From NCBI GenBank assembly GCA_005880615.1, contig VBID01000116.1, positions 1,494 to 65,493 on the forward strand: 64,000 bases of DNA. The letters run 5' to 3'. Each line of letters begins with the position of its first letter. Within the stretch, counting starts at the first letter, position 1. Both the position numbers and the translations under genes were made by a program. This stretch comes from Chloroflexota bacterium (lineage in GTDB: Bacteria > Chloroflexota > Dormibacteria > CF-121). Below the pieces are notes generated by a model. The model saw only the letters and a list, made by a program, of their open reading frames with translations. It made no database searches and was not told where the DNA came from. Below are positions 40,561 to 54,207 of this stretch, piece by piece.

Positions 40561-40714
40561 CAGGCCCCGCGGGAGGCCGATGCCGAACGCTACCGGAGGC
40601 GGCTCACCGGGTCAACGGGCCGGTCTGGCCCGCTTGGTGAGTGCGACGTGGACAGGTTTTTGCAGCGCCCCGCTGCCTGGTCTGCCAGCCTGCCTCCTGC
40701 CCGCGCTCCGAGCG

Positions 40715-41032
40715 TTAGGCCGCGAGCCTGGGCTGCCGTGCCCTCAGCAACTCCTGGGCATCGAACAGCACATCCAGGACCCGCACCGGATCGCGCGTGA
40801 CGTTCCGGCTGAGCACGCGGTGCAACTTGCGGCTGACAGGACGGACAAAGCGCATGATCTCGTCCATCAGGCTCTCGGGGATGGCGGCATGCCGTCCCTC
40901 GATCAGGTTCTCGACCTGGAGCAAGAAGGAGTCCAGCTGTCGCACTCCCGCCCGCCGCCGCAGCTCCGCCTGGCGGCGATCCTCGGCCATCTGGTAACCC
41001 CGGTGAATCTCTTCGATCGCCTCACTGAGCAT
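40715..41032 (-). CDS. Hypothetical protein (105 aa)
   Basis: ATG start with AAGGGGG upstream. No recognisable domain. Confidence 0.4.
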   Translation of the reverse strand: MLSEAIEEIHRGYQMAEDRRQAELRRRAGVRQLDSFLLQVENLIEGRHAAIPESLMDEIMRFVRPVSRKLHRVLSRNVTRDPVRVLDVLFDAQELLRARQPRLAA

Positions 41033-41174
41033 GGCATGAACCCCCTTCCGGCTTGCCTTGTTGTCTCACCTTGACGCTGGCATAGAACTTGATAGCTAGC
41101 ATAGTACCAAACACGAAACCCCTGTCAAGGGTTTGGTATCTACAGAAAGTCCGCGGGTGAAGTTGGCTCCCCCT

Positions 41175-41354
41175 TAGCCCGAATCCACCGAGTCGAACTA
41201 GCATCTTGGGCGCGGGACGAGCGATCGGGGCGTGTCTCCTGCGCGCGCTCGGTTACGCACCGACGGGTGCGCGCCCTCGCGTGCTCGTCGCCTCCTTCCG
41301 CTCATCTCGCCCCGCATCCCAATCTGCGTCGTCCGATCGGTGGGTCCGGGCTTA
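41175..41354. mobile_element. MITE-like structured repeat, copy D (minimal ~180-bp form)
   Basis: TAGCCCGAATCCACCGAGTCGAACTAGCATCTTGGGCGCGGG ... GGTGGGTCCGGGCTTAGG. The 3' end overlaps the TAA stop of the minus-strand MerR gene. Confidence 0.8.
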
Positions 41355-41690
41355 GGCCGGACGGGCGAGGTCCTGGAGGCCCTGTAGCTCGTGTACCTGA
41401 TCGAGCTCCAGGCCCTGCCGCACAAGGGCTTCCAAGAGGCGAAGGACGTATTTAACCCCGGCCAGGTTTACGCCCTTTTCTCGGGTCAGAAACTGAATGG
41501 CCTGGACCCGGCGGATGTCCTCCTCTGAATAGCGCCGCCGATTGGTCACCGTCCGCTGCGGCTTGATCAGGTTTTCGCTCTCGTAGATCATCAGCGTCCG
41601 GGGATGCAAATTGAGGATCTCGCTGGCAATACTCGGGGTAAAGACGGCGCGGCTGGACGCGATGTCGTTCGCCGGCTGTGCGCGACCCAC
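41352..41690 (-). CDS. MerR-family regulator, HspR-like, paralog 1
   Basis: IASEILNLHPRTLMIYESENLIKPQRTVTNRRRYSEEDIRRVQAIQFLTREKGVNLAGVKYVL matches the HspR-type MerR HTH. Confidence 0.75.
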   Translation of the reverse strand: MGRAQPANDIASSRAVFTPSIASEILNLHPRTLMIYESENLIKPQRTVTNRRRYSEEDIRRVQAIQFLTREKGVNLAGVKYVLRLLEALVRQGLELDQVHELQGLQDLARPA

Positions 41691-41832
41691 TCGCTAGGCC
41701 ACCTCCCGGTGCGAGGAAAGCCTCGAATACGGCTCCCAGTTAGCTTACAGTTAGGGTATCACGAAATGGGCTCCCTCTGCAACCGGCCCGCCTGCTGACG
41801 GGCAGACAGGCTGGCGGGCGATACTGGAGCCC

Positions 41833-43365
41833 ATGATTGCCATCGAGGAATACACCCGGCAGCTCCTCAAGGACCTGCATCCCGTGATCGTGGCCAACCG
41901 GGCCCCGGTCGACGTCCAGCTGGAGGCCGACGAGGAATACCGCTTCGTGCGCGGCGGCGGCGGCCTGGTCACCGGGCTGGCCGGGCTGGCGCAGGCGACC
42001 GGGGCGGTCTGGGTGGCCTGTGCCCGCGAAGGGCCAGACCAGGAGCTGTCGGCCAGCGACGGCTCGGAGCCAATGTCGCTGCAAACCGAGGAAGGGCTGC
42101 GCTACCGGGTCCTGTGGGTGAAGCCGCCCCGGCCGGCCTACGACCTCTACTACAACACCATCGCCAACCCGCTGCTGTGGTTTGTCCAGCACTACCTGTG
42201 GAACCTGGCCGAGGCCCCCATCCTGGACGACAGCACCCATCACGCCTGGACCGAAGGCTACCGCCGGGTCAACCAGCTGTTCGCCCAGCAGGTGGTGAAC
42301 GAGGCCCGCCGCGGCCACAAGCGGTCGCTGGTCCTCTCCCACGACTACCAGCTCTACCTGGTGCCCCGGCTGGTGCGCCGGGAACTACCGGACGCCATCC
42401 TGCAGCATTACGTCCACATCCCCTGGCCCACCCCCCAGTACTGGAAGGTGCTGCCCCAGTACATGCGCGACGAGATCATGGATGGCCTACTGGCCAGCGA
42501 CGTGGTCGGCCTGCAGACGCGCAGTGACGTCCGCAACTTCCTGCTGACCTGCGAAGAGAACATGGGTCTGCCCATCGACCTGCGCCAACAGGTCGCCTTC
42601 TACCGAGGTCGGACGGTGTGGGTGCGTAACTACCCAATCTCCATCGACGTGCGCGAGTTCGAAGCGTCGGCCCGGACGCCGGCCGTCGAGCGCGCTGAAC
42701 GCGATATCCTGCGCTGGCGACCGCGCCACGTGATCTTCCGGGTCGATCGGATGGACCTGTCCAAGAACATCGTCCGCGGGTTTCTCGCCTACGATCGGCT
42801 GCTCCAGGTCCATCCGGAGTGGCGCGGCGAGGTGGTCTTCTGGGCGCTGCTGCAGAAGACGCGTCAGAACGTCAGCGAGTACCGCGAGTATGCCCGCCAG
42901 GTCCAGCAGGCCGTTCGGGTGGTCAATGAACGACACGGCACCCCTACCTGGCAGCCCATCCGGCTCGAACTGCGCGACGACATCCCGCGGGCCATTGCCG
43001 GCTACAAGCAGTTCGACGTGCTGCTGGTGAACGCCATCTACGACGGCATGAACCTGGTCGCCAAGGAGGGCATCACCGTCAACCGGCGGGGCGGCGTGCT
43101 GGTGCTCTCCGAGAATGCCGGTGCCCACGAAGAGCTGGGCCAGTGGGCGATCACCATCAACCCCTTCGACGTGGACGGCACGGCCGAGGCGCTCCACCGG
43201 GCGTTGCTGATGGACGGGGTGGAACGCCATGCCCGCGCCGAGAAAATGCGCGGGGTGGTGGAACAGAACGACATTGCCCGCTGGATCTCGGCCCAGCTGC
43301 AGGACCTGCGTGACCTGGTGGAACCCGCGGCCGCCCGCCGGCCGGAGTTACGACAGCTGAGCTAA
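41833..43365 (+). CDS. otsA: Alpha,alpha-trehalose-phosphate synthase (GT20)
   Basis: 510 aa. ANPLLWFVQHYLWN and the UDP-binding region (VNRRGGVLVLSENAGA) are typical of OtsA. Confidence 0.85.
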   Translation: MIAIEEYTRQLLKDLHPVIVANRAPVDVQLEADEEYRFVRGGGGLVTGLAGLAQATGAVWVACAREGPDQELSASDGSEPMSLQTEEGLRYRVLWVKPPRPAYDLYYNTIANPLLWFVQHYLWNLAEAPILDDSTHHAWTEGYRRVNQLFAQQVVNEARRGHKRSLVLSHDYQLYLVPRLVRRELPDAILQHYVHIPWPTPQYWKVLPQYMRDEIMDGLLASDVVGLQTRSDVRNFLLTCEENMGLPIDLRQQVAFYRGRTVWVRNYPISIDVREFEASARTPAVERAERDILRWRPRHVIFRVDRMDLSKNIVRGFLAYDRLLQVHPEWRGEVVFWALLQKTRQNVSEYREYARQVQQAVRVVNERHGTPTWQPIRLELRDDIPRAIAGYKQFDVLLVNAIYDGMNLVAKEGITVNRRGGVLVLSENAGAHEELGQWAITINPFDVDGTAEALHRALLMDGVERHARAEKMRGVVEQNDIARWISAQLQDLRDLVEPAAARRPELRQLS

Positions 43366-43377
43366 CCCGGGGTCGAG

Positions 43378-43734
43378 CTACTCCCAGAGGTGGCGAGCAG
43401 CCGCCAGCTCGGGGAAGTCCGCCTCGGGGAGAGGCAGCCGCTGCTTGGAGGCGGCCTCCATCAACGAGAAAATGACCTTCACGCCGGCCAGGTTGATCCC
43501 GCTGACGGTGGTCAGCTCGCGGATCAGGCGGACGCGTTCGATGTCGCGCCGCGAGTAGCGCCGGCGCTGGGTGGGGGTGCGCTCGGGCGCGATCAGGTGC
43601 TCACTCTCGTACACGAAGAGGGTGCGCGGTTCAATGTCGAACATGTCCGAGACTTCGCTGGACTTATGGGCCACCGGCTCGCCTCCCGCAAAGCAGTATA
43701 GCCGATATATCAACATTCGTGATAAACGTCGCAC
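43378..43734 (-). CDS. MerR-family regulator, HspR-like, paralog 2 (divergent N-terminus)
   Basis: EPRTLFVYESEHLIAPERTPTQRRRYSRRDIERVRLIRELTTVSGINLAGVKVI. Confidence 0.6.
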   Translation of the reverse strand: MRRLSRMLIYRLYCFAGGEPVAHKSSEVSDMFDIEPRTLFVYESEHLIAPERTPTQRRRYSRRDIERVRLIRELTTVSGINLAGVKVIFSLMEAASKQRLPLPEADFPELAAARHLWE

Positions 43735-43907
43735 CGTACCGAAACTGCGCCTTCACCGGCTTCGGCTCGCACCCGACCGATGTGGTGATCGGACATTCGC
43801 AACTGGTGTGGCGCTGCTTATCACCTTAGCGAGGCAAGGCTTCGCTTGAACGGCCGGCGGACGGCCGCTACGCTGTCGCACCAGGCCTGACCAGCCTTAA
43901 GCCCAGC

Positions 43908-45038
43908 ATGTCGAGCATCTTACGGCACGCCTCCGCCTTCGCACGACAGCTCGTGCTGAGCTTGTGCCTGTTCAGCCTGCTGGCGTCGCCGTTCGGGGTC
44001 CGGACCTATCTGGACGTGCAGGCGGCCCAGCGCGCCGCGGCGGCCCAGCAACTGAGCGTCATCGACCGGCCGGCCATCGTGTCGGCTCGGACCTCCGCCA
44101 CCAGCGTCCGGCCGTTTGATCAGCCCGAGCGCGCGGCGATCGATGCGGTGCGCGGCAAGGGCGCCTGGTTCATGATCTTCGCCAGCGACTGGACGAATCC
44201 TGATGCCGACCGGGCCTGGGACATGGTGGATGCGGCGGTCAAGGCCGACCTGAGCCACATCTACGTGCGGGTGGCCGACTCCCGGGCGCACTTCTACGGT
44301 GCCCCGGCGCTCCAGGACCTGCTTCCCATTGCCCACTCTCGCGGGGTGCGTGTGATCGGCTGGGTCGAACCCGAGCTCTCCGACGCCCATTCCGATGCCG
44401 TCGATGCCATCGCAGCGGCGCGCTACCAGAGTGCTGGACAGCACCTGGATGGCCTGGCGCTGACCGTCGAGCAGAATTGGGACGACAGCTCGATCGAGTG
44501 GTACCTGGGCGGCATCCGGCGCGGCATTGATGGCGCAGTCGGACTGGGTGACCGCTACCTGCTGGTGGCCAGCACCTTCCCGGTTCCGTCCGAGCACCGC
44601 AGCTATCCCTGGGCCACCATGTCCCGCTACTGCCAGGTCTTTGCCCCAATGGCCTACTGGCGGGCCACCGGGCGGCGTCAATTCGTGGGAAGCGGTGGGG
44701 TGCGCGCCTTCCTGGACCAGATCTTTGCCGAGTTCCGCGATCCCGGGATCAATCCCTACCAGCGCCCGGTGTCCATCACGGCACAGGCTTACGACGCGAC
44801 GCTCGAGTACGGCATCCCCGGCTCACCCCCGGGGGAGGAGATCGTCGCCTCCATGGATGAGACCCGGGCCCAGGGTGGGCTCAGCTGGTCCTTCTACCGA
44901 CTGTCCAACGCGGACAACGGCGTGACCGGCGACGAGGCCGCGGCCATCACCGCCTATCCGTTCTGGCAGCGCCCGGCCCCGGCAACGATTGCGCAGAAGG
45001 CCCTGATCGCGGTCGTTGACCAGCCGGCTGCGTACTGA
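43908..45038 (+). CDS. Secreted hypothetical protein, putative TIM-barrel glycosidase-like fold
   Basis: Signal peptide. 376 aa. The assignment is weak. Confidence 0.4.
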   Translation: MSSILRHASAFARQLVLSLCLFSLLASPFGVRTYLDVQAAQRAAAAQQLSVIDRPAIVSARTSATSVRPFDQPERAAIDAVRGKGAWFMIFASDWTNPDADRAWDMVDAAVKADLSHIYVRVADSRAHFYGAPALQDLLPIAHSRGVRVIGWVEPELSDAHSDAVDAIAAARYQSAGQHLDGLALTVEQNWDDSSIEWYLGGIRRGIDGAVGLGDRYLLVASTFPVPSEHRSYPWATMSRYCQVFAPMAYWRATGRRQFVGSGGVRAFLDQIFAEFRDPGINPYQRPVSITAQAYDATLEYGIPGSPPGEEIVASMDETRAQGGLSWSFYRLSNADNGVTGDEAAAITAYPFWQRPAPATIAQKALIAVVDQPAAY

Positions 45039-45055
45039 TTCCAGGAAGCCAACGC

Positions 45056-46966
45056 ATGAATCTGTTTCGCCGCCGCCAACCGCCCGCCTCCGGTGGCCTC
45101 CCCGACTGGCGGATCGGGCTGGCGGTGGGCGCCGGGGCGGTGGCCGCCACCGCCCTGGCGTTCGTCATCGCCACGGCTACCGGGTCCACCCGGTCCATCT
45201 GGAATCAGCCTCAGACCCCCATCGGCGATGTCCTGAACCGGGTTGACGCCGGGCAGGTCAAGAGCGCCGTCATCACCGGCGAGCGCGTCGTCCTGACCGA
45301 TCGCAAAGGCGCCACCTTCTGGACCCAGAAGGAAAGCGGGACGGCGATCGCCGACGAACTGCGCCAGCATGGGGTGCAGGTCAGCGTTGCCCCCGGCGAC
45401 TCCTCCGACCTGGTGCGGACCCTGCCCAACCTGGTGGGGCTGCTCCTGCTGGTGGCGCTGGTGTTCCTGCTCCTGCGCCGGTCCAACCTGCTGGGGAGCC
45501 CGATGGGCGCCTTCTCCAAGCACCTGCGGGAGGCCGGCCGGGAATCGTCCGCGGTCGTCACCTTCGCCGAGGTGGCGGGCGTGGACGAGGCCAAGCAGGA
45601 GCTGGAAGAGGTCGTTCGATTTCTCCGGACGCCCGCCGGCTTTCGCGAGCTGGGGGCGCGCATGCCGCGCGGCGTGCTCCTGATCGGCCCCCCCGGGACT
45701 GGCAAGACGTTGCTGTCGCGAGCCGTGGCCGGCGAGGCCGGGGTGCCCTATTTCTCCCTCAGCGGGTCCGACTTCGTGGAGATGTTCGTCGGGGTGGGAG
45801 CGGCGCGGGTCCGGGACCTGTTCCGCCACGCCAAGAAGCACGCCCCCTGCATCATCTTCATCGACGAGATCGATGCCCTGGGTCGGAAGCGCGGGGCATC
45901 GTTCGGGCGCACCAACGAGGAGCGAGAACAAACCCTCAACCAGCTGCTGGTGGAGATGGACGGCTTCCACACCGACGAGGCGGTGGTCGTGGTGGCGGCC
46001 ACCAACCGGCCCGACGTGCTGGATCCGGCCTTGCTCCGATCCGGCCGCTTCGACCGACGGGTGGCCATCGAGTCCCCCGACATCAACGGGCGGCGCGCCA
46101 TCCTCGCCCTGTACGCGCGCGCGAAACCGTTGTCGCCCGAGATCGACCTGGAGGTGATCGCCCGGCAGACGCCGGGGTTCACGGGGGCGGACCTGGCCAA
46201 CCTGCTGAACGAGGCGGCCATCCTGGCCGCCCGGGGCGGCAAGCGGGTGATCGGCCGCAGCGAGATGGAAGAGGCCGCCTTTCGGGTGATGGCGGGGCCC
46301 GAGAAGCGCAGCCGGATCCTCACCCCGGAGGAGAAGGCCATCGTTGCCTACCACGAGGTGGGCCATGCGCTCTGCATGAAGTCGATCGCCAAGAGCGACC
46401 CGGTCCATAAGGTTTCCATCGTGGCCCGCGGCCAGGCGCTGGGCGTGACCGTGCAGCTGCCGAGACGCGATCGCTATCTCACCTCGAAGTCCGAATTGCA
46501 GGCCCGGATGGTGGCGGCCATGGGCGGTCGGGCGGCCGAAGAGATCATCTTCGGCGATGCCACCACCGGGGCGAAGCAGGACATCGAGGTCGCCACCAGC
46601 ATCGCCCGGCACATGGTGTGTGAGTTCGGGATGAGCGAGCGGCTGGGCCTGGTCACCCTGCGCGCCCGCGACGATGATGACTCGCCGCTGATCTCGGAGC
46701 TGACCGCTGAGGACGTGGACGCGGAGGTGAAGGCGCTGATCGACGCGGCGTACCGGCAGGCGGTGCAGATCCTGCAGGAGAAGCGCGCCATCCTGGTCCA
46801 AATCGCGGAACATCTGCAGCAGGTGGAGACCATTGATGGGGCCGAGCTGGATGGCCTCCTCGCCTCGGACCCGGCGGCCATGCCGAGGCTGCCGGAGCGG
46901 CGGATGCCGGTCGAGGAGTCTGGTCGGGGCGCGCAGGTCGCGGCGGCGGAAGCCGACCAGGCCTAG
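45056..46966 (+). CDS. ftsH: ATP-dependent zinc metalloprotease FtsH
   Basis: N-terminal TM helices, AAA module ([18 protein letters not shown] region) and the M41 peptidase HEVGHAL zinc motif. Confidence 0.9.
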
Positions 46967-46990
46967 CCCGAATCTACCGGCTTCCTCTAG
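46964..46990. repeat. Short remnant of the MITE-like element (terminal repeat only)
   Basis: TAGCCCGAATCTACCGGCTTCCTCTAG. It supplies the TAG stop of ftsH and the CTA (TAG) stop of the minus-strand MerR gene. Confidence 0.55.
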
Positions 46991-47334
46991 ATAATCTCGG
47001 CGTACAGCTCGTACACGATGCGCAGGTCGTCTGGCGGGCGAACCTTATTTAGCTTCAGCGCTTGCAGCAGCATCAGGATGTACTTGACGCCGGCCAGGTT
47101 GACGCCCTTCTCTCGGGTCAGCTGCTGGATGACCTGCAGTTTGCGCACATTGCGCTGCGAGTAGCGTCGCCGGTTGGTCGACGTCCGGTAGGGTTCGATC
47201 AGGCCCAGGTCCTCATACATCATCAGCGTGCGGGGATGGGTTTCCAGGATTTCGGACGCGACGCTGATGGTGTAGAGGGGCTTGTCGAGGTCGAACCCGG
47301 CGGACAAGGGGACCCGACGCTCGGTAGCGGCCAC
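46987..47334 (-). CDS. MerR-family regulator, HspR-like, paralog 3 (operon with the upstream receiver gene)
   Basis: LDKPLYTISVASEILETHPRTLMMYEDLGLIEPYRTSTNRRRYSQRNVRKLQVIQQLTREKGVNLAGVKYIL. Confidence 0.75.
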   Translation of the reverse strand: MAATERRVPLSAGFDLDKPLYTISVASEILETHPRTLMMYEDLGLIEPYRTSTNRRRYSQRNVRKLQVIQQLTREKGVNLAGVKYILMLLQALKLNKVRPPDDLRIVYELYAEII

Positions 47335-47337
47335 GGC

Positions 47338-47727
47338 TCAGTCCTTGACCCAGTCCTGCACGCCGCGGCTGAGGCTGGCTGGCGTCGTCTCCGACTTGAT
47401 CAAGTAATCAAGGGCGCCCAGCTTGAGGCCGCGGTCGACCAGCTCCTTCTCGCCGTAGTTGGAGAGGATGATGACCGGAATGTTCCTGGTCACGGTGTCC
47501 TGGCGGAGGTTTTCGAGCACGGCGAACCCGTCCATCTTGGGCAGCCGGATATCCAGGAAGACGATGTCCGGGACCAGCTTCTTGGCCTGTTCCAGGCCCT
47601 CCTCGCCCGACTTGGCCACGGTCACGCGGTAGCCATCCAGCTCCAGCTTGAGTTTGTACATCTCAGCCACAGCCGGGTCGTCCTCGATAAAGAGGACGTT
47701 GACCTCCTCGTCGACGACTTCACTCAT
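47338..47727 (-). CDS. Orphan single-domain response regulator (receiver only), paired with MerR paralog 3
   Basis: Start at MSEVVDEE with a strong GGAGGAAGGAG RBS. Receiver motifs VLFIEDD, IVFLDIRLPKMDG, VIILSN, LGALDYLIK. Confidence 0.75.
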   Translation of the reverse strand: MSEVVDEEVNVLFIEDDPAVAEMYKLKLELDGYRVTVAKSGEEGLEQAKKLVPDIVFLDIRLPKMDGFAVLENLRQDTVTRNIPVIILSNYGEKELVDRGLKLGALDYLIKSETTPASLSRGVQDWVKD

Positions 47728-47903
47728 GGGCGCTCCTTCCTCCTGTATAACATCTCTATCACCTTTCCCGCACTGGCGCCGGGGAAAGTATACGGCAGCG
47801 TGGGATGAAATAGCACCCTGGGCGGGGGGTGTTTTGGGCGGGTCGCCGAGACAGTGGTACGATGGCACGATCGCGCGGCGCAGACCGCCAGGAGGCTGAC
47901 AGG

Positions 47904-48125
47904 GTGGGCTATTTAAGGGGTGTCGTACACGGGGCGTTGCTGGGCGCGTGCCTGGGGTTGCTCTATGCGCCGGCAGCGGGGGTGGTAACCCGCAAGCGGG
48001 TGAGCCACTGGCTCCAGGAGGCCGAGGAGGCTCTGGGCGGAGCCGGCGACGGGGCCGAACGCCGGGCTCCCGCCCGCAGCGGATCAGGGGTAGCCAGCCG
48101 GCCAAAGCGGGCACCGGCGTCATAG
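47904..48125 (+). CDS. YtxH-like (DUF948) general-stress membrane protein
   Basis: GTG start preceded by AGGAGG. GALLGACLGLLYAPAAGVVTRKRV matches the YtxH hydrophobic helix + KxGxETRE pattern. Confidence 0.5.
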   Translation: MGYLRGVVHGALLGACLGLLYAPAAGVVTRKRVSHWLQEAEEALGGAGDGAERRAPARSGSGVASRPKRAPAS

Positions 48126-48134
48126 GAGGAACCG

Positions 48135-48488
48135 ATGGAGCAGACCGTGGACAAGACTGTGGAGCGTCTGAGCGAGATCCTGGACCGCGCCACCAAGGCG
48201 GCTAGCGACCTGGAGCTGAAGGACCGGCTGGGCGACGCGGTGTCAGCCCTGCGCCGGACCCGGCTGCGGCAACCCGATGAGGATGCGGGGATCGAACGCT
48301 TTGTCACCGGGTTGCTGCTCGGGGTGGGCATCGGTTTTGGCCTGGCCCTCTTGCTGGCCCCCAAGAGCGGCGAGGAGATGCGGGAAGACCTGATGCAGCG
48401 GGGGATCGAGCTCCGGGACCGGGCCAGCGGTCTGGCCGCGCGGGTGCCGTTCGGCGACGGCGGCGAAAAGACCCCCAGCGAGTCCTAG
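48135..48488 (+). CDS. YtxH-like (DUF948) general-stress protein
   Basis: GLLLGVGIGFGLALLLAPKSGEEMREDLMQRG is the YtxH signature. Confidence 0.6.
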   Translation: MEQTVDKTVERLSEILDRATKAASDLELKDRLGDAVSALRRTRLRQPDEDAGIERFVTGLLLGVGIGFGLALLLAPKSGEEMREDLMQRGIELRDRASGLAARVPFGDGGEKTPSES

Positions 48489-48512
48489 CCCGAATCCCGG
48501 CTTAGCCCGATC
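48487..48512. repeat. Minimal remnant of the MITE-like element (terminal repeat pair, no core)
   Basis: TAGCCCGAATCCCGGCTTAGCCCGATCC directly after the stop codon at 48488. Confidence 0.45.
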
Positions 48513-48527
48513 CGCGCCTGGTCCGTC

Positions 48528-50780
48528 CTACCCATGGGGCGACGGCGACGGCGATGGTGACACTCCGGGCTGCGGCGGCAGCTTCTGGCACAGCCCGGGC
48601 GGCAGGTCGATCGGGCAGGGGAGCAGGTCTTCGGGGGGCGGGGGCGGTGGCGGAACCGGGTTGATGACGCAGTAGACACCGTCCACGATGGTGTCGCTCC
48701 AGGTGAGGGTCCACTTGTTGAAGGTGGTGAAGGGGCAGCGCGGCCAGTCCTTGTCCAGGCTGGGGTTGGCGCCTGCGGTGCCCGGCAGGAAGTAGTTGTC
48801 GCCCTGGCGGGTAAGCCCGTCTGGGACCGGATACCACTCGTCGGGCACCCCGCCCAGAGCTTCCATCATGTAGCGGTGCCAGATGGGGGCGGCGCCGATG
48901 ATGCCGGTGGAGTTGTGGCTGAGGGGAGCGTTGTTCGGATTGCCGATCCAGACCGCGGTCGCCAGCCGCGGGGTGAAGCCGACCGTCCAGTTGTCCCGAA
49001 AGTCCTGCGTGGTCCCCGTCTTGGCGGCCACCCGCCGGCCCGGGAGTGTGAGGTCGCCGTGGCAGCCGAACGACAGGCAGCGGTTCCGGTCGTCCGACAT
49101 GATCGCCCCGACGATGTAGCTGACCTGCGGGGAGAGGGCGCGGTATTCATTCTTTGATGGGTCGTAGGTGTACTTGACGCGGCCCAGTCCGTCCTGGATC
49201 TTCAAAATGGCGGTCGGCTGGTGGCGAATCCCCAGGGTGGCCAGGGTCGAGGCCCCGGTCGCCATGTCGAGCACGCGCACGCCATAGGAGCCGAGTGTCA
49301 GGCTGATCGAAAAGTGGTTGTCGTCGAACTCCTGACAATCGCTTGGATTCCCTGGGACTGCCCAGCAGCTAATCCCCATGCGGCGGGCGGCGCTCAGCAC
49401 GGTCGGGACGCCTACCTTCATCTCCACCTTGAGGGCCGGGATGTTGAGGGAGTTGCCCATCACCATCTTGACCGGCAGGGTGCCGTGATACGCGCCGTCA
49501 TAGTTCTGGGGGGCGTACTGCTCGTGGCCGGACCCGCCACCGATGGGGAAGACCAGCGCTTCGTCCTTGACCGGCGTCGTCATGTTGACCCGCCCGCTCT
49601 CGATGGCGGCGGTGTAGGTGAACATCTTGAAGCTGGAACCCGGCTGCCGCGGTGCAACCGCCATGTTGATCTGGCCTCCGGGGCGGTTATAGTCATCGCC
49701 GCCCACCATGGCCAGGATCTCGCCGGTCCGCGGATCCATGGAGACCAGCGCGGCATCGTGGAAGTTGTAATAGTTCCCCACCGAGGTGATCTGGTCGCGG
49801 ACGGTCCGTTCGGCAATCTGCTGGAGGTCCATGCGCAGGCTGGTGAAGATCCGGTACCCCTTCCGGTCGCTGGGGGCGATGCCGTAGTCCTTCTGCAGGG
49901 AATGCAGCACGTAGTCGACGAAGTGCGGTGCCAGGAACTTGTTGATGGGCGGGTAGATGGTGAGCTGCTCGGCAAACGCCTTATCGGCCTGGGCCTGGGT
50001 GATGTCGTGTTGCTCGACCATGCCCTGCAAGACCTCACGCTGCCGGATCTTGGCCTGTTGTGGATTGCGCAGGGGATCGTTCCGGGTGGGCGCCTGGGGC
50101 AGGCCGGCCAGCATAGCCGCTTGGGCTAGGGTCAGGTCGTGGGCATTGCTCTGAGGGCCAAAGTAGCTGCGGGCCGCCGACTCCACGCCGTAGCTTTGCT
50201 CGCCGTAGTAGATGGTGTTGAGGTAGAGCTCCAGGATCTGGTTCTTGGTATACCGCTGGTTCAACTCCAGCGCCAGGATGCCTTCGCGCACCTTGCGCTG
50301 CAGCGTAGGCGGGGGGTTGGCTCCGATGAACACTTGCTTAACCAGCTGCTGGCTGATGGTGCTGCCCCCTTGGGTGATCTTGCGATGGGTGAGGTTGGCG
50401 AAGGCGGCCCGGACGATGCCGCCCAGGTCAATGCCACTGTTCTGGAAGAAGGTGCGGTCCTCGCTGGACAGGGTCGCTTTGACCAGCAGGGGTGACATGT
50501 AGCTGAGCGGGACCACGATCCGGTGGTCGCCGGATGCGCCAATATCGGCCAGCAATGCCCCGTTGCGGTCGAAGATCAGGGTGTCCTGATCCAGGCCGCT
50601 GGCGGACAGACCTTGCACGGTGGGCAGCGGCCCCACGGTCTGGGCGGCGACCGCCGGGATCGCCATGCCGGTCAGGATGAAGAGGACCAGGAAGCCCAGC
50701 AGCAGGATGCGCCGCAGATCGGCGCGGCTGCGCCGCCGCCACAGCTGGACATGACGCCGGGTTCGCTGCCTGGACGTCAT
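48528..50780 (-). CDS. Class A penicillin-binding protein (transglycosylase + transpeptidase)
   Basis: GT51 motifs (EDRTFFQNSGID, RKITQGGSTISQQ). Transpeptidase SSFK, SLN and KTGT motifs. N-terminal TM anchor. Start set at MTSRQRTRR. Confidence 0.85.
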   Translation of the reverse strand: MTSRQRTRRHVQLWRRRSRADLRRILLLGFLVLFILTGMAIPAVAAQTVGPLPTVQGLSASGLDQDTLIFDRNGALLADIGASGDHRIVVPLSYMSPLLVKATLSSEDRTFFQNSGIDLGGIVRAAFANLTHRKITQGGSTISQQLVKQVFIGANPPPTLQRKVREGILALELNQRYTKNQILELYLNTIYYGEQSYGVESAARSYFGPQSNAHDLTLAQAAMLAGLPQAPTRNDPLRNPQQAKIRQREVLQGMVEQHDITQAQADKAFAEQLTIYPPINKFLAPHFVDYVLHSLQKDYGIAPSDRKGYRIFTSLRMDLQQIAERTVRDQITSVGNYYNFHDAALVSMDPRTGEILAMVGGDDYNRPGGQINMAVAPRQPGSSFKMFTYTAAIESGRVNMTTPVKDEALVFPIGGGSGHEQYAPQNYDGAYHGTLPVKMVMGNSLNIPALKVEMKVGVPTVLSAARRMGISCWAVPGNPSDCQEFDDNHFSISLTLGSYGVRVLDMATGASTLATLGIRHQPTAILKIQDGLGRVKYTYDPSKNEYRALSPQVSYIVGAIMSDDRNRCLSFGCHGDLTLPGRRVAAKTGTTQDFRDNWTVGFTPRLATAVWIGNPNNAPLSHNSTGIIGAAPIWHRYMMEALGGVPDEWYPVPDGLTRQGDNYFLPGTAGANPSLDKDWPRCPFTTFNKWTLTWSDTIVDGVYCVINPVPPPPPPPEDLLPCPIDLPPGLCQKLPPQPGVSPSPSPSPHG

Positions 50781-51235
50781 GCGTGCGCGAAGCCAGCGAT
50801 GCCAGCCAGCATGAGCCAAGCCGCCAGCAGGAGAGCGAATGCCCAGACCGATGCGGTGCCGAGCGAGCGCCAGAGGGCCTGCCGGCGCCGGCGGCGCCGC
50901 TGCTCACGGCGGAGCAGCATGGCGGGCGCCGCGGCGGTCACGCTGGCCACCTGCCTCGGATCCATGATCGGCATCCTCAAGGGCATTCAGTTCTCTCGCG
51001 CAGGCCGTCGCCGGCCCGCGTCCTGTCCAACGACCCAGCGGGTGGGAAGTTACGCGCTCCTTCGACTGTGCGTGTCGTAAGTAGATATACCATTCCTATC
51101 AGTTAAGGTCGGTGTGATTTCTGACGGCGCTCTGGGGCGCCGGGGCTTCGGGAGACCCGCAGCTGGCCGCCTATAATGCCTGCTAGCTCAGCAGAATGCA
51201 ACCCCCAGGGGCTGTATGAATGGAGGGGATTCCCG

Positions 51236-51715
51236 GTGTTTTGTCGGGCCTGCGGCAAGCAGATCGAAGCGGACGCCCGCTTCTGCCGCTTCTGCGGGAA
51301 GTCTCAAGCGGAGGGGCCGGCGGTGGCCTCGGCAGGGCCGGGCGCCAAGGCGGCCACCGGCTCCGGTTCGAAGACCCGGTTGGATGACGTGCTAGGAGGT
51401 ATGGGGTTGGAACGCTGGCTCCGCCGGGTCTTTCCCCGGCACCATCTGCAGGACGAGATCACCCATTTCCTGACCATCGCCGCCATCGTGATCGGGGTGG
51501 TCGGCTTTCTGCTGGCTCTCTTTCCGCCCCTGGGAGCTGGGTTGTACGCGCTGGCCTGGCTGCTGTTCGCCGTCCTCTTGATGCTGTTTGTCATGCACCG
51601 AGATGCCACACTGGCTCATACCCGAACCGACCAGGTCGGGGATGCCTCGACCGGGCGCCATCACGCCGGCCGGGGAGCGGCGCCCGACCGTGGGGATGCC
51701 CAGGTAAAGAAATAG
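51236..51715 (+). CDS. Zinc-ribbon domain membrane protein
   Basis: GTG start with GGAGGGG 7 nt upstream. FCRACGKQIEADARFCRFCG is a double CxxC. Two TM helices follow. Confidence 0.5.
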   Translation: MFCRACGKQIEADARFCRFCGKSQAEGPAVASAGPGAKAATGSGSKTRLDDVLGGMGLERWLRRVFPRHHLQDEITHFLTIAAIVIGVVGFLLALFPPLGAGLYALAWLLFAVLLMLFVMHRDATLAHTRTDQVGDASTGRHHAGRGAAPDRGDAQVKK

Positions 51716-51862
51716 CAGGCCCTGAGCGGGCCGGCTTGTCGAGTTGGGCGGAGTTAGGGGGCGGTCGGCTCGGTAGGCTCCTCGGCCGGCTTGGCCGTCG
51801 CCCGGCGGACCCAGTTGCCGGCGCGCGTTCGATCCTGCTCTTGGCCTGCTGGCCTTTGCCTT

Positions 51863-51943
51863 CCTACTCCATCTTCTGGTTGCCAGTCAGCTTGCCGGCC
51901 AGATCCTTGGCCTCGCCCTGGATCTTGTCTTTGTATCCGCCCA
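51863..51943 (-). CDS. CsbD-like stress-response peptide (26 aa, possibly a truncated gene)
   Basis: Minus strand encodes MGGYKDKIQGEAKDLAGKLTGNQKME (GTG start, AGAGG 7 nt upstream). It matches one CsbD KxxGxxK...GxxTGN repeat. Not in the ORF track because it is under the length cut-off. Confidence 0.3.
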
Positions 51944-52093
51944 CGGATGCACCTCTCAGCAGCAGGTTGATAGCCGCGCTATCAGCTATACCAGTGGCCC
52001 TCGATCGCGAGAGTCTCCTGCTGCAGGTATCCCCGATTCCGCCCAGCAGGTTCGCGTCGCCATGCCCATTTCATAAGTCTTTACAAAACTTCG

Positions 52094-52123
52094 GTTGAGG
52101 GGAATCCGTGGCGAGGAATATAC
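52094..52123 (+). promoter_or_regulatory. Putative sigma-70-type promoter (TTGAGG-N18-TATACT) upstream of MerR paralog 4
   Basis: Hexamer match by eye about 100 nt upstream of the ATG at 52228. Not supported by anything else. Confidence 0.3.
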
Positions 52124-52227
52124 TGCTAGCCAATTTCCGGCCGGGCGGGCTATCAGACAACCCGCTACGACAGCCGGGCGAAGAAGTGACTAGAGCAGCC
52201 CCCGGGGTAAAAGGAGTCGCGCCCAAC

Positions 52228-52575
52228 ATGGCAACTGCCGTCCAACCAGAGACCCGCCGTGATGTCAGCATCTCCCTGGACAAGCCGATCTACACCATCA
52301 GCGTCGCGTCGGAGATCCTGGAAACGCATCCCCGGACGCTCATGATGTACGAGCACCTCGGCCTGGTGGTACCCAAGCGGACGTCCACCAACCGGCGCCG
52401 CTTCTCCCAGCGGGACGTCATGAAATTGCAGACCATCCAGAAGCTGACCCGGCACCACTCGGTCAACCTGGCCGGCGTGCGCTACATCCTGAAGCTACTC
52501 AAGCTGCTGCACGAGAACCGGATTGCCCCGCCGGTCGAGCTCAAAGACATCGACGTGTCCCGGCTGGAAGTCTAG
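52228..52575 (+). CDS. MerR-family regulator, HspR-like, paralog 4
   Basis: Start at MATAVQPETRR with AAGGAG 11 nt upstream. DKPIYTISVASEILETHPRTLMMYEHLGLVVPKRTSTNRRRFSQRDVMKLQTIQKLTRHHSVNLAGVRYIL. Confidence 0.75.
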   Translation: MATAVQPETRRDVSISLDKPIYTISVASEILETHPRTLMMYEHLGLVVPKRTSTNRRRFSQRDVMKLQTIQKLTRHHSVNLAGVRYILKLLKLLHENRIAPPVELKDIDVSRLEV

Positions 52576-52793
52576 GGCCGGCACTCAGGCGTTGACCGAC
52601 AATATGACTCCGGGGGTGTTGACAAGTCTCTCCACCGCCGCTAAACTTAACTTTGTTTCAACCTGCCCCCCTCTTCGGGCCCTCCTCGCCGGAGGGCCTT
52701 TTTTCTGTACTGCGGGTTGATAGGGGGCATATCATTAAAAGTCAGCCACAGCCGAAGCGGCGCGGCGGACCTGCGGCCCAGGCCGACGAGGAC

Positions 52794-53162
52794 GTGGTCG
52801 AGGTGCTGCTGGTGGAAGACGACCAATCCGTGCTGGAGATGTACCGGTTGAAGCTGGAACTCGATGGCTACCGGGTGAGCACCGCGACCGACGGGGAGGA
52901 GGGGCTGAGCAAGGCGGAGACGCTGCGACCCGACATCATCTTCCTGGACATCCGGCTCCCCAAGATGGACGGGTTCGAAGTCCTGCGCCGGCTGCGTGGC
53001 CAGGAAGCGACCAAGGAAATACCGGTTATCATCCTTTCGAACTATGGGGAGGACGACCTGGTGGCCCGCGGTTTGCGGCTTGGCGCGCACGAGTACCTGA
53101 TCAAGGCGCGCACCACGCCCAGCAGTCTGTCGGAGGGAATCGACGATTGGCTAAGGGAGTAA
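52794..53162 (+). CDS. Orphan single-domain response regulator (receiver only), paired with MerR paralog 5
   Basis: About 70% identical to the receiver at 47338..47727 (VLLVEDDQSVLEMYRLKLELDGYRV...IIFLDIRLPKMDGFEVL...VIILSNYGE). Start uncertain; GTG at ~52794 assumed. Confidence 0.65.
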   Translation: MVEVLLVEDDQSVLEMYRLKLELDGYRVSTATDGEEGLSKAETLRPDIIFLDIRLPKMDGFEVLRRLRGQEATKEIPVIILSNYGEDDLVARGLRLGAHEYLIKARTTPSSLSEGIDDWLRE

Positions 53163-53497
53163 CCACCCGCCGCGCCCCGGCCGAGGCCAGCCTGTCCCTG
53201 GACAAGCCCATCTACACCATCAGCGTGGCGTCCGAAATCCTGCAAACGCATCCCCGGACGTTGATGATGTACGAGCACCTGGGGCTGGTGATTCCCAAGC
53301 GAACCTCGACCAACCGGCGCCGGTTTTCGCAGCGCGACATCCGCAAGCTGCAGGCCATCCAGACGCTGACCCGGGTGCACGGCGTTAATCTGAACGGCGC
53401 TCGCTACATCCTGCGGCTGCTGCGCATCCTGCAGGACAACGGGCTGACCGGGCCCTCGGAATTGCGCGACCTCGACGTCCGCGAACTCGACGTATAG
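53147..53497 (+). CDS. MerR-family regulator, HspR-like, paralog 5 (overlaps the receiver gene end by 16 nt)
   Basis: TTG start assumed. LDKPIYTISVASEILQTHPRTLMMYEHLGLVIPKRTSTNRRRFSQRDIRKLQAIQTLTRVHGVNLNGARYIL. Confidence 0.7.
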   Translation: MAKGVTTRRAPAEASLSLDKPIYTISVASEILQTHPRTLMMYEHLGLVIPKRTSTNRRRFSQRDIRKLQAIQTLTRVHGVNLNGARYILRLLRILQDNGLTGPSELRDLDVRELDV

Positions 53498-53532
53498 CCG
53501 GGATCGGGGCCAGCCCCGAATCGGGCTCAGCC
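53495..53532. repeat. Remnant related to the MITE terminal repeats (TAGCCGGGATC + palindrome AGCCCCGAATCGGGCT)
   Basis: Begins with the TAG stop of MerR paralog 5. It resembles the element's 3' TIR, followed by a hairpin like the one in the 5' module of copy A. Confidence 0.4.
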
Positions 53533-53624
53533 GGAGTTCAGCGTAACGGCCGACTGACGAGGCTGCCACGCGTTGGTGCTCGCAAGGTTTCGGCTGAGAT
53601 GGGCGGCTACCGTAGAGACTACCA

Positions 53625-54113: not shown

Positions 54114-54160
54114 CCCTACGGTTCGCTTCCCTGGGTCGAGGCTCCAGCCTCGCGAAATGC

Positions 54161-54204: not shown

Positions 54205-54207
54205 GAC

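What the first reader, a model, noticed from the sequence alone, without database searches (positions are those of the whole stretch)
41352..53497. Five HspR-like MerR paralogs in 12 kb, two in operons with orphan receiver proteins, embedded in a stress-gene cluster
MerR/HspR-type regulators with near-identical HTH regions (ISVASEIL.THPRTLMMYE..GL..P.RTSTNRRRYSQRD..KLQ.IQ.LT...GVNLAGV.YIL) lie at 41352-41690, 43378-43734, 46987-47334, 52228-52575 and 53147-53497. Two of them immediately follow, and overlap or abut, single-domain CheY-like receiver genes (47338-47727 and 52794-53162). The receivers are about 70% identical to each other, which indicates a duplicated REC-MerR two-gene module. The paralogs are interleaved with classical stress genes: otsA, ftsH, two YtxH-like genes, a CsbD-like peptide, and cold-shock csp nearby. 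A receiver-gated HspR-like repressor would be an unusual wiring for heat or desiccation regulons, in which HspR is normally controlled by chaperone titration.
Basis: partly seen in the sequence, partly recalled or inferred. Interest (0 to 1): 0.65.

Follow-up and report, generated by a model that had tools for sequence, protein, structure and literature searches.

The report
Receiver-plus-MerR regulator pairs in Dormibacterota
An uncultured soil bacterium (phylum Dormiibacterota) has five small HspR/GlnR-like MerR regulators interleaved with stress genes; two of them are fused into operons with a stand-alone phospho-receiver protein, a pairing kept across the phylum and not found described in the papers I could search.

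Summary
Five MerR_1 proteins and two single-domain receivers (REC) lie at the stated places. Two starts need correcting: M2 starts at 43674, and the R2 start is uncertain.

The window comes from a Candidatus Dormiibacterota metagenome-assembled genome. In related contigs an R-type REC with enough downstream sequence is followed directly by a MerR gene in 202 of 205 cases. The pair duplicated as a unit and occurs in two unrelated contexts: this stress cluster, and the end of an rplU-rpmA-obg-nadD-rsfS operon.

The MerRs are not canonical HspR. They score below the NCBIfam cut-off, have no dnaK linkage and no HAIR operator. Their nearest solved relatives are GlnR/TnrA, minimal MerR proteins controlled by a protein partner through a C-terminal tail.

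A 17-bp dyad (TGAYA-N7-TRTCA) marks the promoters of M1, M2, R1-M3, a CsbD-like gene and a hypothetical gene, and almost nothing else.

Best reading: the paralogs repress their own genes and the stress genes that diverge from them, and the phosphorylatable REC is the protein partner that gates M3 and M5. The linkage is shown. The gating is inferred.

A conserved small-RNA-like gene of about 55 nt lies between M4 and R2.

The parts
40715..41032 (-). H105, hypothetical 105-aa protein at the edge of the syntenic cluster
   Evidence: No Pfam hit. Syntenic next to M1 in relatives. In 9 relatives a dyad (TAACA-N7-TATCA) lies upstream of it. In the window there is a TTGACA-16-TACTAT promoter-like site at 41128-41101.
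41352..41690 (-). M1, solo HspR/GlnR-like MerR paralog, divergent from the trehalose-6-P synthase-like gene
   Evidence: Pfam MerR_1 59 bits; NCBIfam HspR 83 bits, below 105. Never preceded by a REC. A 59%-identical relative of M3 (48% to M1) is divergent from a trehalose phosphatase gene elsewhere.
41745..41761 (.). Weak dyad TGATA-N7-TGTAA in the M1/otsA divergent promoter region
   Evidence: Read. In 11 of 12 relatives that carry M1, TGATA-N7-TATAA lies about 50 nt upstream of M1.
41833..43365 (+). GT20 trehalose-6-phosphate synthase-like gene (otsA-like)
   Evidence: TIGR02400 333 bits, below the cut-off of 565. Pfam Glyco_transf_20 in the public gene call.
43378..43674 (-). M2, the most divergent solo MerR paralog (98 aa from GTG 43674)
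   Evidence: Pfam MerR_1 60 bits. Called as 98 aa in the public record. The start is conserved as GTG/TTG after a GGAGGG Shine-Dalgarno in 34 relatives.
43695..43725 (-). M2 promoter with operator array: -35 TTATCA, 19-bp spacer, -10 TATACT; half-sites TATCA-N7-TGATA-N7-TATAC
   Evidence: The array T[AG]TCA-N7-TGA[CT]A-N7-TATA[AC] occurs once in each of 34 loci, always here, with TT[AG]TCA-19-TATAAT.
43908..46966 (+). X376 (secreted hypothetical protein, 43908-45038) and ftsH (45056-46966), an operon divergent from M2
   Evidence: FtsH TIGR01241 726 bits, above 600. X376 has no family hit. Syntenic.
46987..47334 (-). M3, REC-linked MerR paralog
   Evidence: Pfam MerR_1 60 bits; HspR 92 bits, below 105. 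AF2 model pLDDT 90. Best PDB matches are GlnR/TnrA-DNA complexes.
47338..47727 (-). R1, stand-alone receiver, first gene of the R1-M3 operon
   Evidence: Pfam Response_reg 91 bits, no output domain. D16, D17, D59, S89 and K111 are conserved in 97-100% of 101 family members. Followed by M3 after 3 nt, in the same reading frame.
47745..47792 (-). R1 promoter region: -10 TATACT (47787-47792) and dyad TGATA-N7-TATAC (47745-47761) in the 5' leader; possible 12-codon uORF (47724-47762)
   Evidence: The dyad TGAYA-N7-TRTCG is present in 23 of 38 syntenic loci.
47862..48488 (+). Two YtxH-like genes (47862-48125 and 48135-48488), divergent from R1-M3
   Evidence: Pfam YtxH 34 bits (below 37.5) and 47 bits.
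51864..51944 (-). CsbD-like gene, truncated by an in-frame stop in this genome, divergent from M4
   Evidence: Pfam CsbD 37.6 bits (cut-off 40) on the translation bridged across the stop. The ortholog in L004 has Trp at the stop position.
51968..51984 (.). Perfect dyad TGATAGCCGCGCTATCA, 24 nt upstream of the CsbD-like start
   Evidence: Relatives have TAACAGGCGCG[CA]TATCG at the same place, nearly the same 17-mer as in their R1 leaders.
52228..52575 (+). M4, solo MerR paralog, 70% identical to M5
   Evidence: Pfam MerR_1 57 bits; HspR 92 bits, below 105. Promoter TTGAGG-18-TATACT at 52095-52124. Never preceded by a REC.
52619..52708 (+). Small-RNA-like gene: promoter TTGACA-17-TAAACT, invariant C-rich core TGCCCCCCTCTTC, terminator hairpin and T-run
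   Evidence: No Rfam match.
52718..52734 (.). Perfect dyad TGATAGGGGGCATATCA just downstream of the R2 -10 (TGTACT 52706-52711), overlapping the R2 ribosome-binding site and ATT codon
   Evidence: Present only in the window's closest relatives (L001, L004).
52734..53162 (+). R2, stand-alone receiver (start ATT 52734, or GTG 52794/52812), first gene of the R2-M5 operon
   Evidence: Pfam Response_reg 95 bits. 66% identical to R1. Start alignment.
53147..53497 (+). M5, REC-linked MerR paralog, overlaps R2 by 16 nt
   Evidence: Pfam MerR_1 58 bits; HspR 86 bits, below 105. Preceded by a REC in 96 of 99 cases.
62429..63535 (+). Orphan soluble PAS-HisKA-HATPase kinase, 9 kb away; possible but unproven phosphodonor
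   Evidence: Pfam PAS_3, HisKA and HATPase_c. No response regulator gene next to it. Linkage to R1 or R2 not tested.

Best explanation
The region is a local stress regulon of a Dormiibacterota bacterium. It is run by five paralogous minimal MerR-type repressors of the HspR/GlnR/TnrA kind.

Each paralog has an N-terminal extension, a winged helix-turn-helix and a short C-terminal helical tail. None has a ligand-binding domain or a long coiled coil.

The paralogs bind 17-bp dyads of the form TGAYA-N7-TRTCA. These lie on or just downstream of their own promoters and of the promoters of divergently transcribed stress genes: trehalose-6-P synthase-like, X376-ftsH, two ytxH-like genes and a csbD-like gene.

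Two paralogs, M3 and M5, are each co-translated with a stand-alone, phosphorylatable receiver, R1 and R2. I propose that the receiver is the protein 'ligand' of its MerR. Depending on its phosphorylation state it would bind the MerR C-terminal tail and shift the equilibrium between monomer, dimer and DNA-bound forms, as glutamine synthetase does for GlnR/TnrA and DnaK does for HspR. Together the two proteins would act as a split response regulator fed by a kinase encoded elsewhere.

Shown: domain content, conserved phospho-acceptor chemistry, tight operon linkage across the phylum, co-duplication, the GlnR/TnrA-like fold, and the promoter-specific dyads.
Inferred: repression, which paralog binds which dyad, the REC-MerR contact, and its dependence on phosphorylation.
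For: Linkage:
- The top 80 loci of the genome scan (415 relatives found in the GTDB species collection) are, by record title and synteny, essentially all Dormiibacterota. A REC lies immediately upstream of the M3-type gene in 75 of 78 testable loci.
- Over all fetched loci, 202 R-type RECs are followed by a MerR, 3 are not, and 26 lie at contig edges.
- Gene calls show a 3-nt gap or 4- to 16-nt overlaps.

Independence of context:
- In other Dormiibacterota the pair sits after rplU-rpmA-obg-nadD-rsfS.
- In this window's lineage it sits in the stress cluster.

Co-duplication: REC and MerR identity matrices agree, (R1,R0),R2 and (M3,M0),M5.

Receiver competence: D16, D17, D59, S89 and K111 are 97-100% conserved in 101 RECs. 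R-type RECs sit in or next to GAF-HisKA-HATPase kinase operons with related MerRs in L087, L217 and L218.

MerR type:
- The best PDB sequence hit is B. subtilis GlnR (E = 3e-11).
- The AF2 model (pLDDT 90) matches GlnR/TnrA-DNA complexes best (TM 0.8-0.9 on the target, rmsd 1.2-1.4 A, 42% identity).
- GlnR and TnrA have extra N-terminal residues, no coiled coil and a C-terminal partner-binding sensor tail (PMC4335299).
- M3 shows the same helix order plus a conserved C-terminal helix. P101, L104, Y111 and E113 are at least 90% conserved.

Operators:
- Two perfect TGATA-N7-TATCA sites occur in the window, where 0.2 sites with at most 1 mismatch are expected.
- In 797 kb of related loci nearly all sites with at most 1 mismatch lie at M1, M2 or REC promoters.
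- The degenerate dyad occurs in 38 syntenic loci only at five promoter regions plus one coding spot.
- The obg-linked class carries CTGATAGGATTGCCATCAG over the -10 just upstream of the REC.
Against: - No direct test of a REC-MerR contact was possible. Complex modelling could not be run.
- No natural REC-MerR fusion was found among ten longer relatives.
- One sub-lineage (L075, L077, L079) keeps the MerR after rsfS but has lost the REC.
- In L087 and L217 the R-type REC is co-transcribed with a kinase, not with the MerR.
- Three of the five paralogs have no REC at all.
- All evidence comes from one phylum, so shared ancestry inflates the counts.
- Two dyad arrangements occur: TATCA-N7-TGATA at M2 and TGATA-N7-TATCA elsewhere. 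The right half-site resembles a -10 box. In most relatives the M4 and R2 promoters carry no dyad.
- No kinase is adjacent in the window.
Confidence: 0.5

Rival explanations
1. Hierarchy rather than partnership. The MerR autoregulates the operon, sensing stress some other way such as chaperone titration as in HspR. The receiver is simply its regulated output and acts on other targets, for example a phosphorelay, a protease adaptor or ribosome hibernation factors, without touching the MerR.
For: Dyads lie upstream of the REC genes, so REC expression is probably under MerR control. The REC is the first gene of the operon. The ancestral context next to obg-nadD-rsfS suggests other cellular targets. 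The REC is dispensable in L075, L077 and L079. In L087 and L217 R-type RECs are transcribed apart from the MerR.
Against: Overlapping or abutting reading frames and more than 98% adjacency through two rounds of duplication point to stoichiometric co-production. The MerRs have no sensor domain of their own, and their nearest solved relatives are partner-controlled.
Confidence: 0.25
2. These are ordinary HspR heat-shock repressors, controlled by DnaK titration and multiplied by duplication. The receivers are unrelated passengers kept by operon inheritance within one phylum.
For: HspR is the best-scoring NCBIfam family for all five (E = 1e-19 to 1e-26). Public annotations call relatives 'HspR'. 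All conservation data come from one phylum.
Against: All five score below the HspR equivalog cut-off (67-92 against 105). No dnaK, dnaJ, grpE or clpB lies beside any of the five paralogs, in the window or in the syntenic loci; only part of the rest of the window was annotated. True dnaK-hsp20-dnaJ-hspR(-clpB) operons belong to relatives only about 42-46% identical. The HAIR consensus gives one 3-mismatch hit inside a coding region, as expected by chance. The pair recurs in two unrelated contexts and co-duplicated.
Confidence: 0.1
3. They are GlnR/TnrA-type nitrogen regulators whose partner is glutamine synthetase. The REC provides an unrelated input.
For: GlnR/TnrA are the closest solved structures. 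M2-type operators in relatives fit TGTNA-N7-TNACA (TGTCA-N7-TGACA in L008). A glutamate synthase gene lies 1-2 genes from the pair in the obg-linked context.
Against: The NCBIfam TnrA model scores 24-29 bits against a cut-off of 140. No glnA is adjacent. The exact TnrA consensus has no hit in the window. The neighbouring genes are stress genes, not nitrogen genes.
Confidence: 0.05

Closest known systems
GlnR/TnrA of Bacillus and other Firmicutes (MerR offshoot; PDB 4r4e, 4r22, 7tea; PMC4335299)
   Same: The closest solved relatives by sequence and by predicted fold. Shared features: an N-terminal extension before the wHTH, no long coiled coil, a short C-terminal tail, 17-bp 5-7-5 dyad operators, and activity set by a protein partner that binds the tail rather than by a small ligand.
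   Different: The partner there is glutamine synthetase and the regulon is nitrogen assimilation. Here the co-encoded candidate partner is a receiver domain and the neighbours are stress genes. The NCBIfam TnrA model is far below its cut-off. The half-site is TGAYA/TRTCA, not TGTNA/TNACA, at most sites.
HspR (Streptomyces, Mycobacterium, Helicobacter, Deinococcus) with DnaK or CbpA as co-regulator
   Same: The best-scoring named family. A small MerR-type repressor without a ligand domain, autoregulated, modulated by a protein partner, with an inverted-repeat operator spaced by N7.
   Different: Below the equivalog cut-off. Not in a dnaK operon. No HAIR (CTTGAGT-N7-ACTCAAG). The partner encoded in the operon is a receiver, not a chaperone. 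Canonical dnaK-linked HspR genes are separate, more distant relatives.
PhyR-NepR-sigma(EcfG) partner switch of Alphaproteobacteria, and other stand-alone or adaptor receivers (RssB, CpdR, Spo0F); from my own knowledge
   Same: The logic: receiver phosphorylation controls a general-stress transcription factor by protein-protein binding rather than through a fused DNA-binding domain.
   Different: The components are unrelated (a sigma factor and anti-sigma there, a MerR-type repressor here). The receiver here is a bare CheY-like domain.
Classical MerR-family activators (MerR, CueR, SoxR, BmrR)
   Same: The Pfam MerR_1 wHTH. The M2 promoter has a 19-bp spacer between near-consensus hexamers, the hallmark of MerR-type promoters.
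   Different: No effector-binding domain and no long dimerisation helix. The dyads are not centred in the spacer. Other promoters have 17-18-bp spacers.

Membership tests
MerR superfamily (Pfam PF13411 MerR_1) | N-terminal winged HTH scoring above the Pfam gathering threshold | tested here: met
   57-60 bits against 21.6 for all five.
MerR superfamily (classical activators) | Long C-terminal coiled-coil dimerisation helix plus an effector-binding region | tested here: not met
   The AF2 model of M3 has helices 80-95 and 102-114 only, and the protein ends at residue 115. Full-length matches to CueR, SoxR and BmrR have rmsd of about 5-7 A, against 1.2-1.4 A for GlnR.
MerR superfamily (classical activators) | Target promoter with a 19-20-bp spacer and an operator dyad centred in the spacer | tested here: inconclusive
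   The M2 promoter has a 19-bp spacer in 34 of 34 loci, but its half-sites overlap the -35, mid-spacer and -10. The M4 and sRNA promoters have 17-18 bp spacers.
HspR (NCBIfam NF047375 equivalog) | Score at or above the curated cut-off (105 bits) | tested here: not met
   M1 83, M2 67, M3 92, M4 92, M5 86 bits.
HspR | Gene in or next to a dnaK/grpE/dnaJ or clpB operon | tested here: not met
   No chaperone gene lies in the cluster or in the syntenic loci. dnaK-linked HspR genes are found only for more distant relatives, P0290 and P0376.
HspR | HAIR operator CTTGAGT-N7-ACTCAAG at target promoters | tested here: not met
   One hit with 3 mismatches, inside R1 coding sequence; 0.95 expected by chance.
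HspR | DnaK (or CbpA) acts as co-repressor or modulator | not testable with these tools
   Needs biochemistry.
GlnR/TnrA family | Extra N-terminal residues before the wHTH, and a C-terminal tail instead of a coiled coil (PMC4335299) | tested here: met
   About 20 residues, including the conserved FDLDKPLYTI, precede helix 1 and align with GlnR 'SMPLFPIGIV'. Fold match TM 0.8-0.9. Architecture. Definition. The N-terminal segment is not predicted as a helix in the monomer model.
GlnR/TnrA family | NCBIfam TnrA/GlnR model above its cut-off | tested here: not met
   24-29 bits against 140.
GlnR/TnrA family | Operator TGTNA-N7-TNACA | tested here: inconclusive
   No exact hit in the window. The M2 operator is TATCA-N7-TGATA here and TGTCA-N7-TGA[CT]A in relatives. 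The other sites have the inverse arrangement, TGAYA-N7-TRTCA.
GlnR/TnrA family | Controlled by feedback-inhibited glutamine synthetase | not testable with these tools
   No glnA is adjacent. Biochemistry is needed.
Two-component response regulator, stand-alone receiver (CheY-like) | Response_reg domain with the conserved acidic pair, phospho-acceptor Asp, Ser/Thr and Lys, and no output domain | tested here: met
   Pfam 91 and 95 bits, one domain only. D16, D17, D59, S89 and K111 are conserved in 97-100% of 101 sequences.
Two-component response regulator, stand-alone receiver (CheY-like) | Cognate histidine kinase encoded nearby | tested here: not met
   No kinase lies within the cluster. The nearest is an orphan PAS kinase at 62429-63535. 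GAF kinases sit next to R-type RECs in L087, L217 and L218.

The most novel reading that the evidence does not exclude
The REC-MerR pair is a new kind of split response regulator. A bare receiver domain, once phosphorylated, serves as the 'ligand' of a GlnR/TnrA-type minimal MerR repressor.

In Dormiibacterota this module would be the phylum's general-stress or dormancy switch. It is ancestrally attached to the obg-nadD-rsfS ribosome-silencing operon. In this lineage it has been duplicated and is backed by three receiver-less paralogs with the same DNA-reading head but different tails. It would tie trehalose synthesis, YtxH/CsbD-type stress proteins and FtsH to kinase signalling, with a co-located C-rich small RNA as a further layer.
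Probability: 0.35. Interest if true: 0.75.

Novelty: new variant of a known kind. Interest (0 to 1): 0.6.

Why it matters
Dormiibacterota are abundant, uncultured soil and desert bacteria known for dormancy and persistence. Nothing is known about how they regulate stress genes.

A receiver domain acting through a separate MerR-type DNA binder would add an output class to two-component signalling. It would also extend the GlnR/TnrA and HspR principle, a minimal MerR protein controlled by a protein partner, to phosphorylation-based control.

The parts are small (129 + 115 aa). The candidate operators are defined to the base, and more than 200 natural pairs are available. The idea is therefore directly testable in vitro without culturing the organism.

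Tried and rejected
- **HAIR operator search:** chance level.
- **Exact TnrA/GlnR consensus:** no hit in the window.
- **Rfam scan of 40000-54500 at E <= 1:** only two chance snoRNA hits inside ftsH.
- **Modelling an R1-M3 complex:** A hand-joined sequence with unpaired homologs was misaligned by MAFFT, which placed the MerR rows on the REC half.
- **Rosetta-stone fusions:** ten longer relatives (177-358 aa) carry only MerR domains.
- **Small-RNA target test:** the C-rich seed pairs best with the R1 leader (-21.8 kcal/mol), but shuffled seeds pair equally well, so the test says nothing.
- **Looking beyond the phylum:** the three homolog searches and the genome scan list best hits first, and where a source name is given these are mostly Dormiibacterota or generic 'Chloroflexi' MAG labels. 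The more distant cluster representatives I could place were solo MerRs or dnaK-linked HspR, or GAF-kinase-linked relatives from similar high-GC contigs. Whether the pair exists outside the phylum remains open.
- **MerR-GAF-kinase-REC operon of L087:** a close homolog (P0429) is a solo gene, so this arrangement is not general.
- **Literature searches** for Dormibacterota + HspR, and for receiver + MerR partnerships, found no precedent.
- **Assembly artefact:** rejected, because the same gene order is present in dozens of independent metagenome-assembled genomes.

Full report
**1. What is there**

ORF listing and domain searches confirm five small MerR_1 proteins:
- M1, 41352-41690 (-)
- M2, 43378-43674 (-)
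- M3, 46987-47334 (-)
- M4, 52228-52575 (+)
- M5, 53147-53497 (+)

They also confirm two single-domain receivers: R1, 47338-47727 (-), and R2, ending at 53162 (+). tblastn finds no sixth paralog in the window.

R1 and R2 are 66% identical. M3, M4 and M5 are 60-70% identical to one another. M1 is about 51% and M2 about 38% identical to M3.

R1 stops 3 nt before M3, in the same reading frame. R2 overlaps M5 by 16 nt.

Two gene starts need correcting:
- M2 starts at GTG 43674.
- The R2 start codon that is ATG in relatives is ATT (52734-52736) here.

**2. Source and conservation**

The exact M3 protein lies on a 65.5-kb soil metagenome scaffold with the same gene order. Close homologs that carry a source name are labelled Candidatus Dormibacteraeota/Dormiibacterota or, generically, 'Chloroflexi bacterium' MAGs.

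A scan of one genome per GTDB species found 415 relatives. By record title and synteny the best 80 loci are essentially all Dormiibacterota; a few records carry other names.

In 37 of these loci the whole order is syntenic: M5-R2-M4-(Zn-ribbon protein)-PBP-YtxH-R1-M3-FtsH-X376-M2-OtsA-M1-H105.

An R-type REC lies directly upstream of the M3-type gene in 75 of 78 testable loci. Over all fetched loci, 202 R-type RECs are followed by a MerR, 3 are not, and 26 are at contig edges. M1, M2 and M4 never have a REC.

In the more distant Dormiibacterota (M3 identity about 70%) the pair sits in a different place, immediately after rplU-rpmA-obg-nadD-rsfS, with 4- to 16-nt overlaps. One sub-lineage has the same context without the REC.

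REC and MerR identities give the same branching: R1-R0 72% and R2 66%; M3-M0 73% and M5 60%. The pair therefore duplicated as a unit.

These counts come from related genomes and from loci chosen by similarity, so they are not independent events. Even so, two contexts plus one co-duplication argue for a functional unit.

**3. What kind of MerR**

HspR is the best NCBIfam family for all five, but every score (67-92 bits) is under the curated 105. None of the five is next to a chaperone gene, and no chaperone gene turned up in the parts of the window that were annotated.

Two more distant relatives, P0290 and P0376 (about 42-46% identical to M3 on pairwise alignment), sit in classical dnaK-hsp20-dnaJ-hspR(-clpB) operons. 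The HAIR consensus is at chance level.

By sequence the closest solved proteins are GlnR and TnrA. An AF2 model of M3 (pLDDT 90) matches GlnR/TnrA-DNA complexes best (rmsd 1.2-1.4 A, 42% identity to B. subtilis GlnR). Classical MerR proteins fit only the wHTH.

According to PMC4335299, GlnR and TnrA differ from classical MerR proteins in three ways:
- They have extra N-terminal residues.
- They lack the coiled coil and form weak dimers on DNA.
- They use a C-terminal tail as a protein-binding sensor, for glutamine synthetase. In GlnR this tail is also autoinhibitory.

M3 has the same order of elements:
- a conserved N-terminal FDLDKPLYTI segment
- helices 23-29 and 34-42
- a wing
- helices 60-75 and 80-95
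- a conserved terminal helix 102-114 (P101, L104, Y111 and E113 at least 90% conserved)

It works like this group. It is not a member by the NCBIfam TnrA model (24-29 bits against 140).

**4. The receivers**

Both are bare Response_reg domains. The acidic pair, the phospho-acceptor Asp59, Ser89 and Lys111 are conserved in 97-100% of 101 family members. They are therefore likely to be phosphorylated.

No kinase lies in the cluster. An orphan PAS kinase is 9 kb away.

In three contigs of related bacteria (L087, L217, L218) R-type RECs (58-61% identical to R1/R2) sit in or beside GAF-HisKA-HATPase kinase operons, next to M4/M5-like MerR genes. This shows the family belongs to real two-component pathways. 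That arrangement is not general, however.

**5. Operators and regulon**

Aligning orthologous upstream regions shows conserved -10 boxes (TATACT or TATAAT) and a recurring 17-bp dyad.

In the window, TGATA-N7-TATCA is perfect at two sites, where 0.2 sites with at most 1 mismatch are expected:
- 51968-51984, 24 nt upstream of the CsbD-like start
- 52718-52734, just after the R2 -10

The R1 leader has TGATA-N7-TATAC (47745-47761).

The M2 promoter has TATCA-N7-TGATA-N7-TATAC across a -35/19-bp/-10 promoter (43695-43725). That three-part array occurs exactly once in each of 34 loci, always there.

In 797 kb of related loci, nearly all sites with at most 1 mismatch fall at M1, M2 or REC promoters.

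A degenerate form of the dyad occurs in 38 syntenic loci only at these places:

| Location | Sites (loci) |
|---|---|
| M2 promoter | 35 |
| R1/ytxH intergenic region | 23 |
| M1/otsA intergenic region | 11 |
| csbD-like/M4 intergenic region | 9 |
| Upstream of H105 | 9 |
| One coding position in R2 | 17 |

The obg-linked pairs carry CTGATAGGATTGCCATCAG over a -10 directly upstream of the REC.

The geometry (5-7-5) equals that of GlnR/TnrA sites. Sites on or downstream of the -10 suggest repression.

Each M gene or operon is divergent from a stress gene: M1/otsA-like, M2/X376-ftsH, R1-M3/ytxH-like x2, and M4/csbD-like. The dyads can therefore serve both directions.

Caveats:
- Two dyad arrangements exist.
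- The right half-site resembles a -10 box.
- The M4 promoter, and R2 promoters in most relatives, have no dyad.
- M3, M4 and M5 have identical recognition helices, so which paralog binds where cannot be told.

**6. Mechanism proposed**

- Shown: a conserved, co-translated REC + minimal MerR unit; a phosphorylation-competent REC; a GlnR/TnrA-like MerR without a ligand domain; and promoter-specific dyads around the cluster.
- Inferred: the MerRs repress their own and the divergent stress genes. REC, depending on phosphorylation, binds the C-terminal tail of its partner MerR and changes dimerisation and DNA binding. The pair would act as a split response regulator.
- The receiver-less paralogs would bring other inputs to the same operators.
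- Rivals: MerR controls REC expression and REC acts elsewhere; ordinary HspR plus passenger genes; nitrogen regulators. They are weighed in the rival list.

**7. Comparison and novelty**

Four literature searches found no described receiver-MerR partnership and nothing on HspR-like regulators in this phylum. The library lacks most subscription papers, so this is absence of evidence only.

The parts are known kinds: a stand-alone receiver and a partner-controlled minimal MerR. The combination and its phylum-wide conservation appear new. I file it as a new variant of a known kind.

**8. Side finding**

Between M4 and R2 lies a near-consensus promoter (TTGACA-17-TATAAT in relatives). It is followed by an invariant C-rich stretch and a terminator whose loop varies while its stem does not.

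The 22-mer core is present in all 27 genome loci that include the interval, and in at least 119 metagenome contigs. It is always flanked by M4 upstream and R2 downstream. It has no Rfam match.

It looks like a roughly 55-nt small RNA gene, or a leader, tied to this module. A target test was uninformative.

Noticed in passing
window 52619-52708 (+): Small-RNA-like gene between M4 and R2. It has a strong sigma70-type promoter, an invariant C-rich single-stranded core (TGCCCCCCTCTTC) and an intrinsic terminator with a variable loop. It is found in at least 119 metagenome contigs, always in the order M4 -> element -> R2-M5. No Rfam family matches. The target is unknown.
   Followed up: partly
window 51864-51944 (-), remnant to about 51790: The CsbD-like gene is cut to 26 codons by an in-frame stop where the ortholog in L004 has Trp. 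This is either a pseudogene in this genome or a sequencing or assembly variant.
   Followed up: partly
window 52734-52736: The R2 start codon, ATG in relatives, is ATT in this genome and in L004. The perfect dyad 52718-52734 overlaps the ribosome-binding site. R2 may use a rare start codon or a downstream GTG.
   Followed up: partly
window 47724-47762 (-): Possible 12-codon upstream ORF (GTG...TGA) whose stop overlaps the R1 ATG. ATG- or GTG-started versions ending the same way occur in many relatives. It overlaps the leader dyad, so the two readings cannot be separated here.
   Followed up: partly
window 47335-47340 (-): R1 and M3 are in the same reading frame, separated only by the stop codon and one codon. 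Stop-codon read-through would give a REC-MerR fusion.
   Followed up: no
L019, L026, L028, L030, L031, L034, L037, L073: R1 5' leaders: One to three tandem copies of a roughly 35-nt hairpin element (GAGCCCGCTCCGGCGTGGAAAAGCGGGCGGTT) are inserted between the leader dyad and the R1 ribosome-binding site. It looks like a small mobile or REP-like repeat (seen).
   Followed up: no
L084-L086 and L041-L074: In other Dormiibacterota the REC-MerR pair is the tail of the rplU-rpmA-obg-nadD-rsfS gene string and has its own promoter-like site. This hints at a link with ribosome silencing and dormancy.
   Followed up: partly
L087 7611-10440; L217 902-4169: In related high-GC contigs, R-type receivers sit in or beside GAF-HisKA-HATPase kinase operons, next to M4/M5-like MerR genes. 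L087 carries three MerR genes and four REC genes in 12 kb.
   Followed up: partly
window 62429-63535 (+) and 33780-34244 (+): An orphan soluble PAS histidine kinase with no adjacent regulator, and a third receiver domain (38% identical to R1) at the end of a long ORF. Either could belong to the same signalling network.
   Followed up: no
window 37388-40560 (-): Two tandem paralogous genes encoding DUF3048 proteins (535 and 531 aa), just upstream of the cluster.
   Followed up: no
L093 6001-6744: A 247-aa tandem-duplicated ('fused homodimer') HspR-like MerR, divergent from a suf iron-sulfur assembly operon. The paralog family has diversified onto other targets.
   Followed up: no
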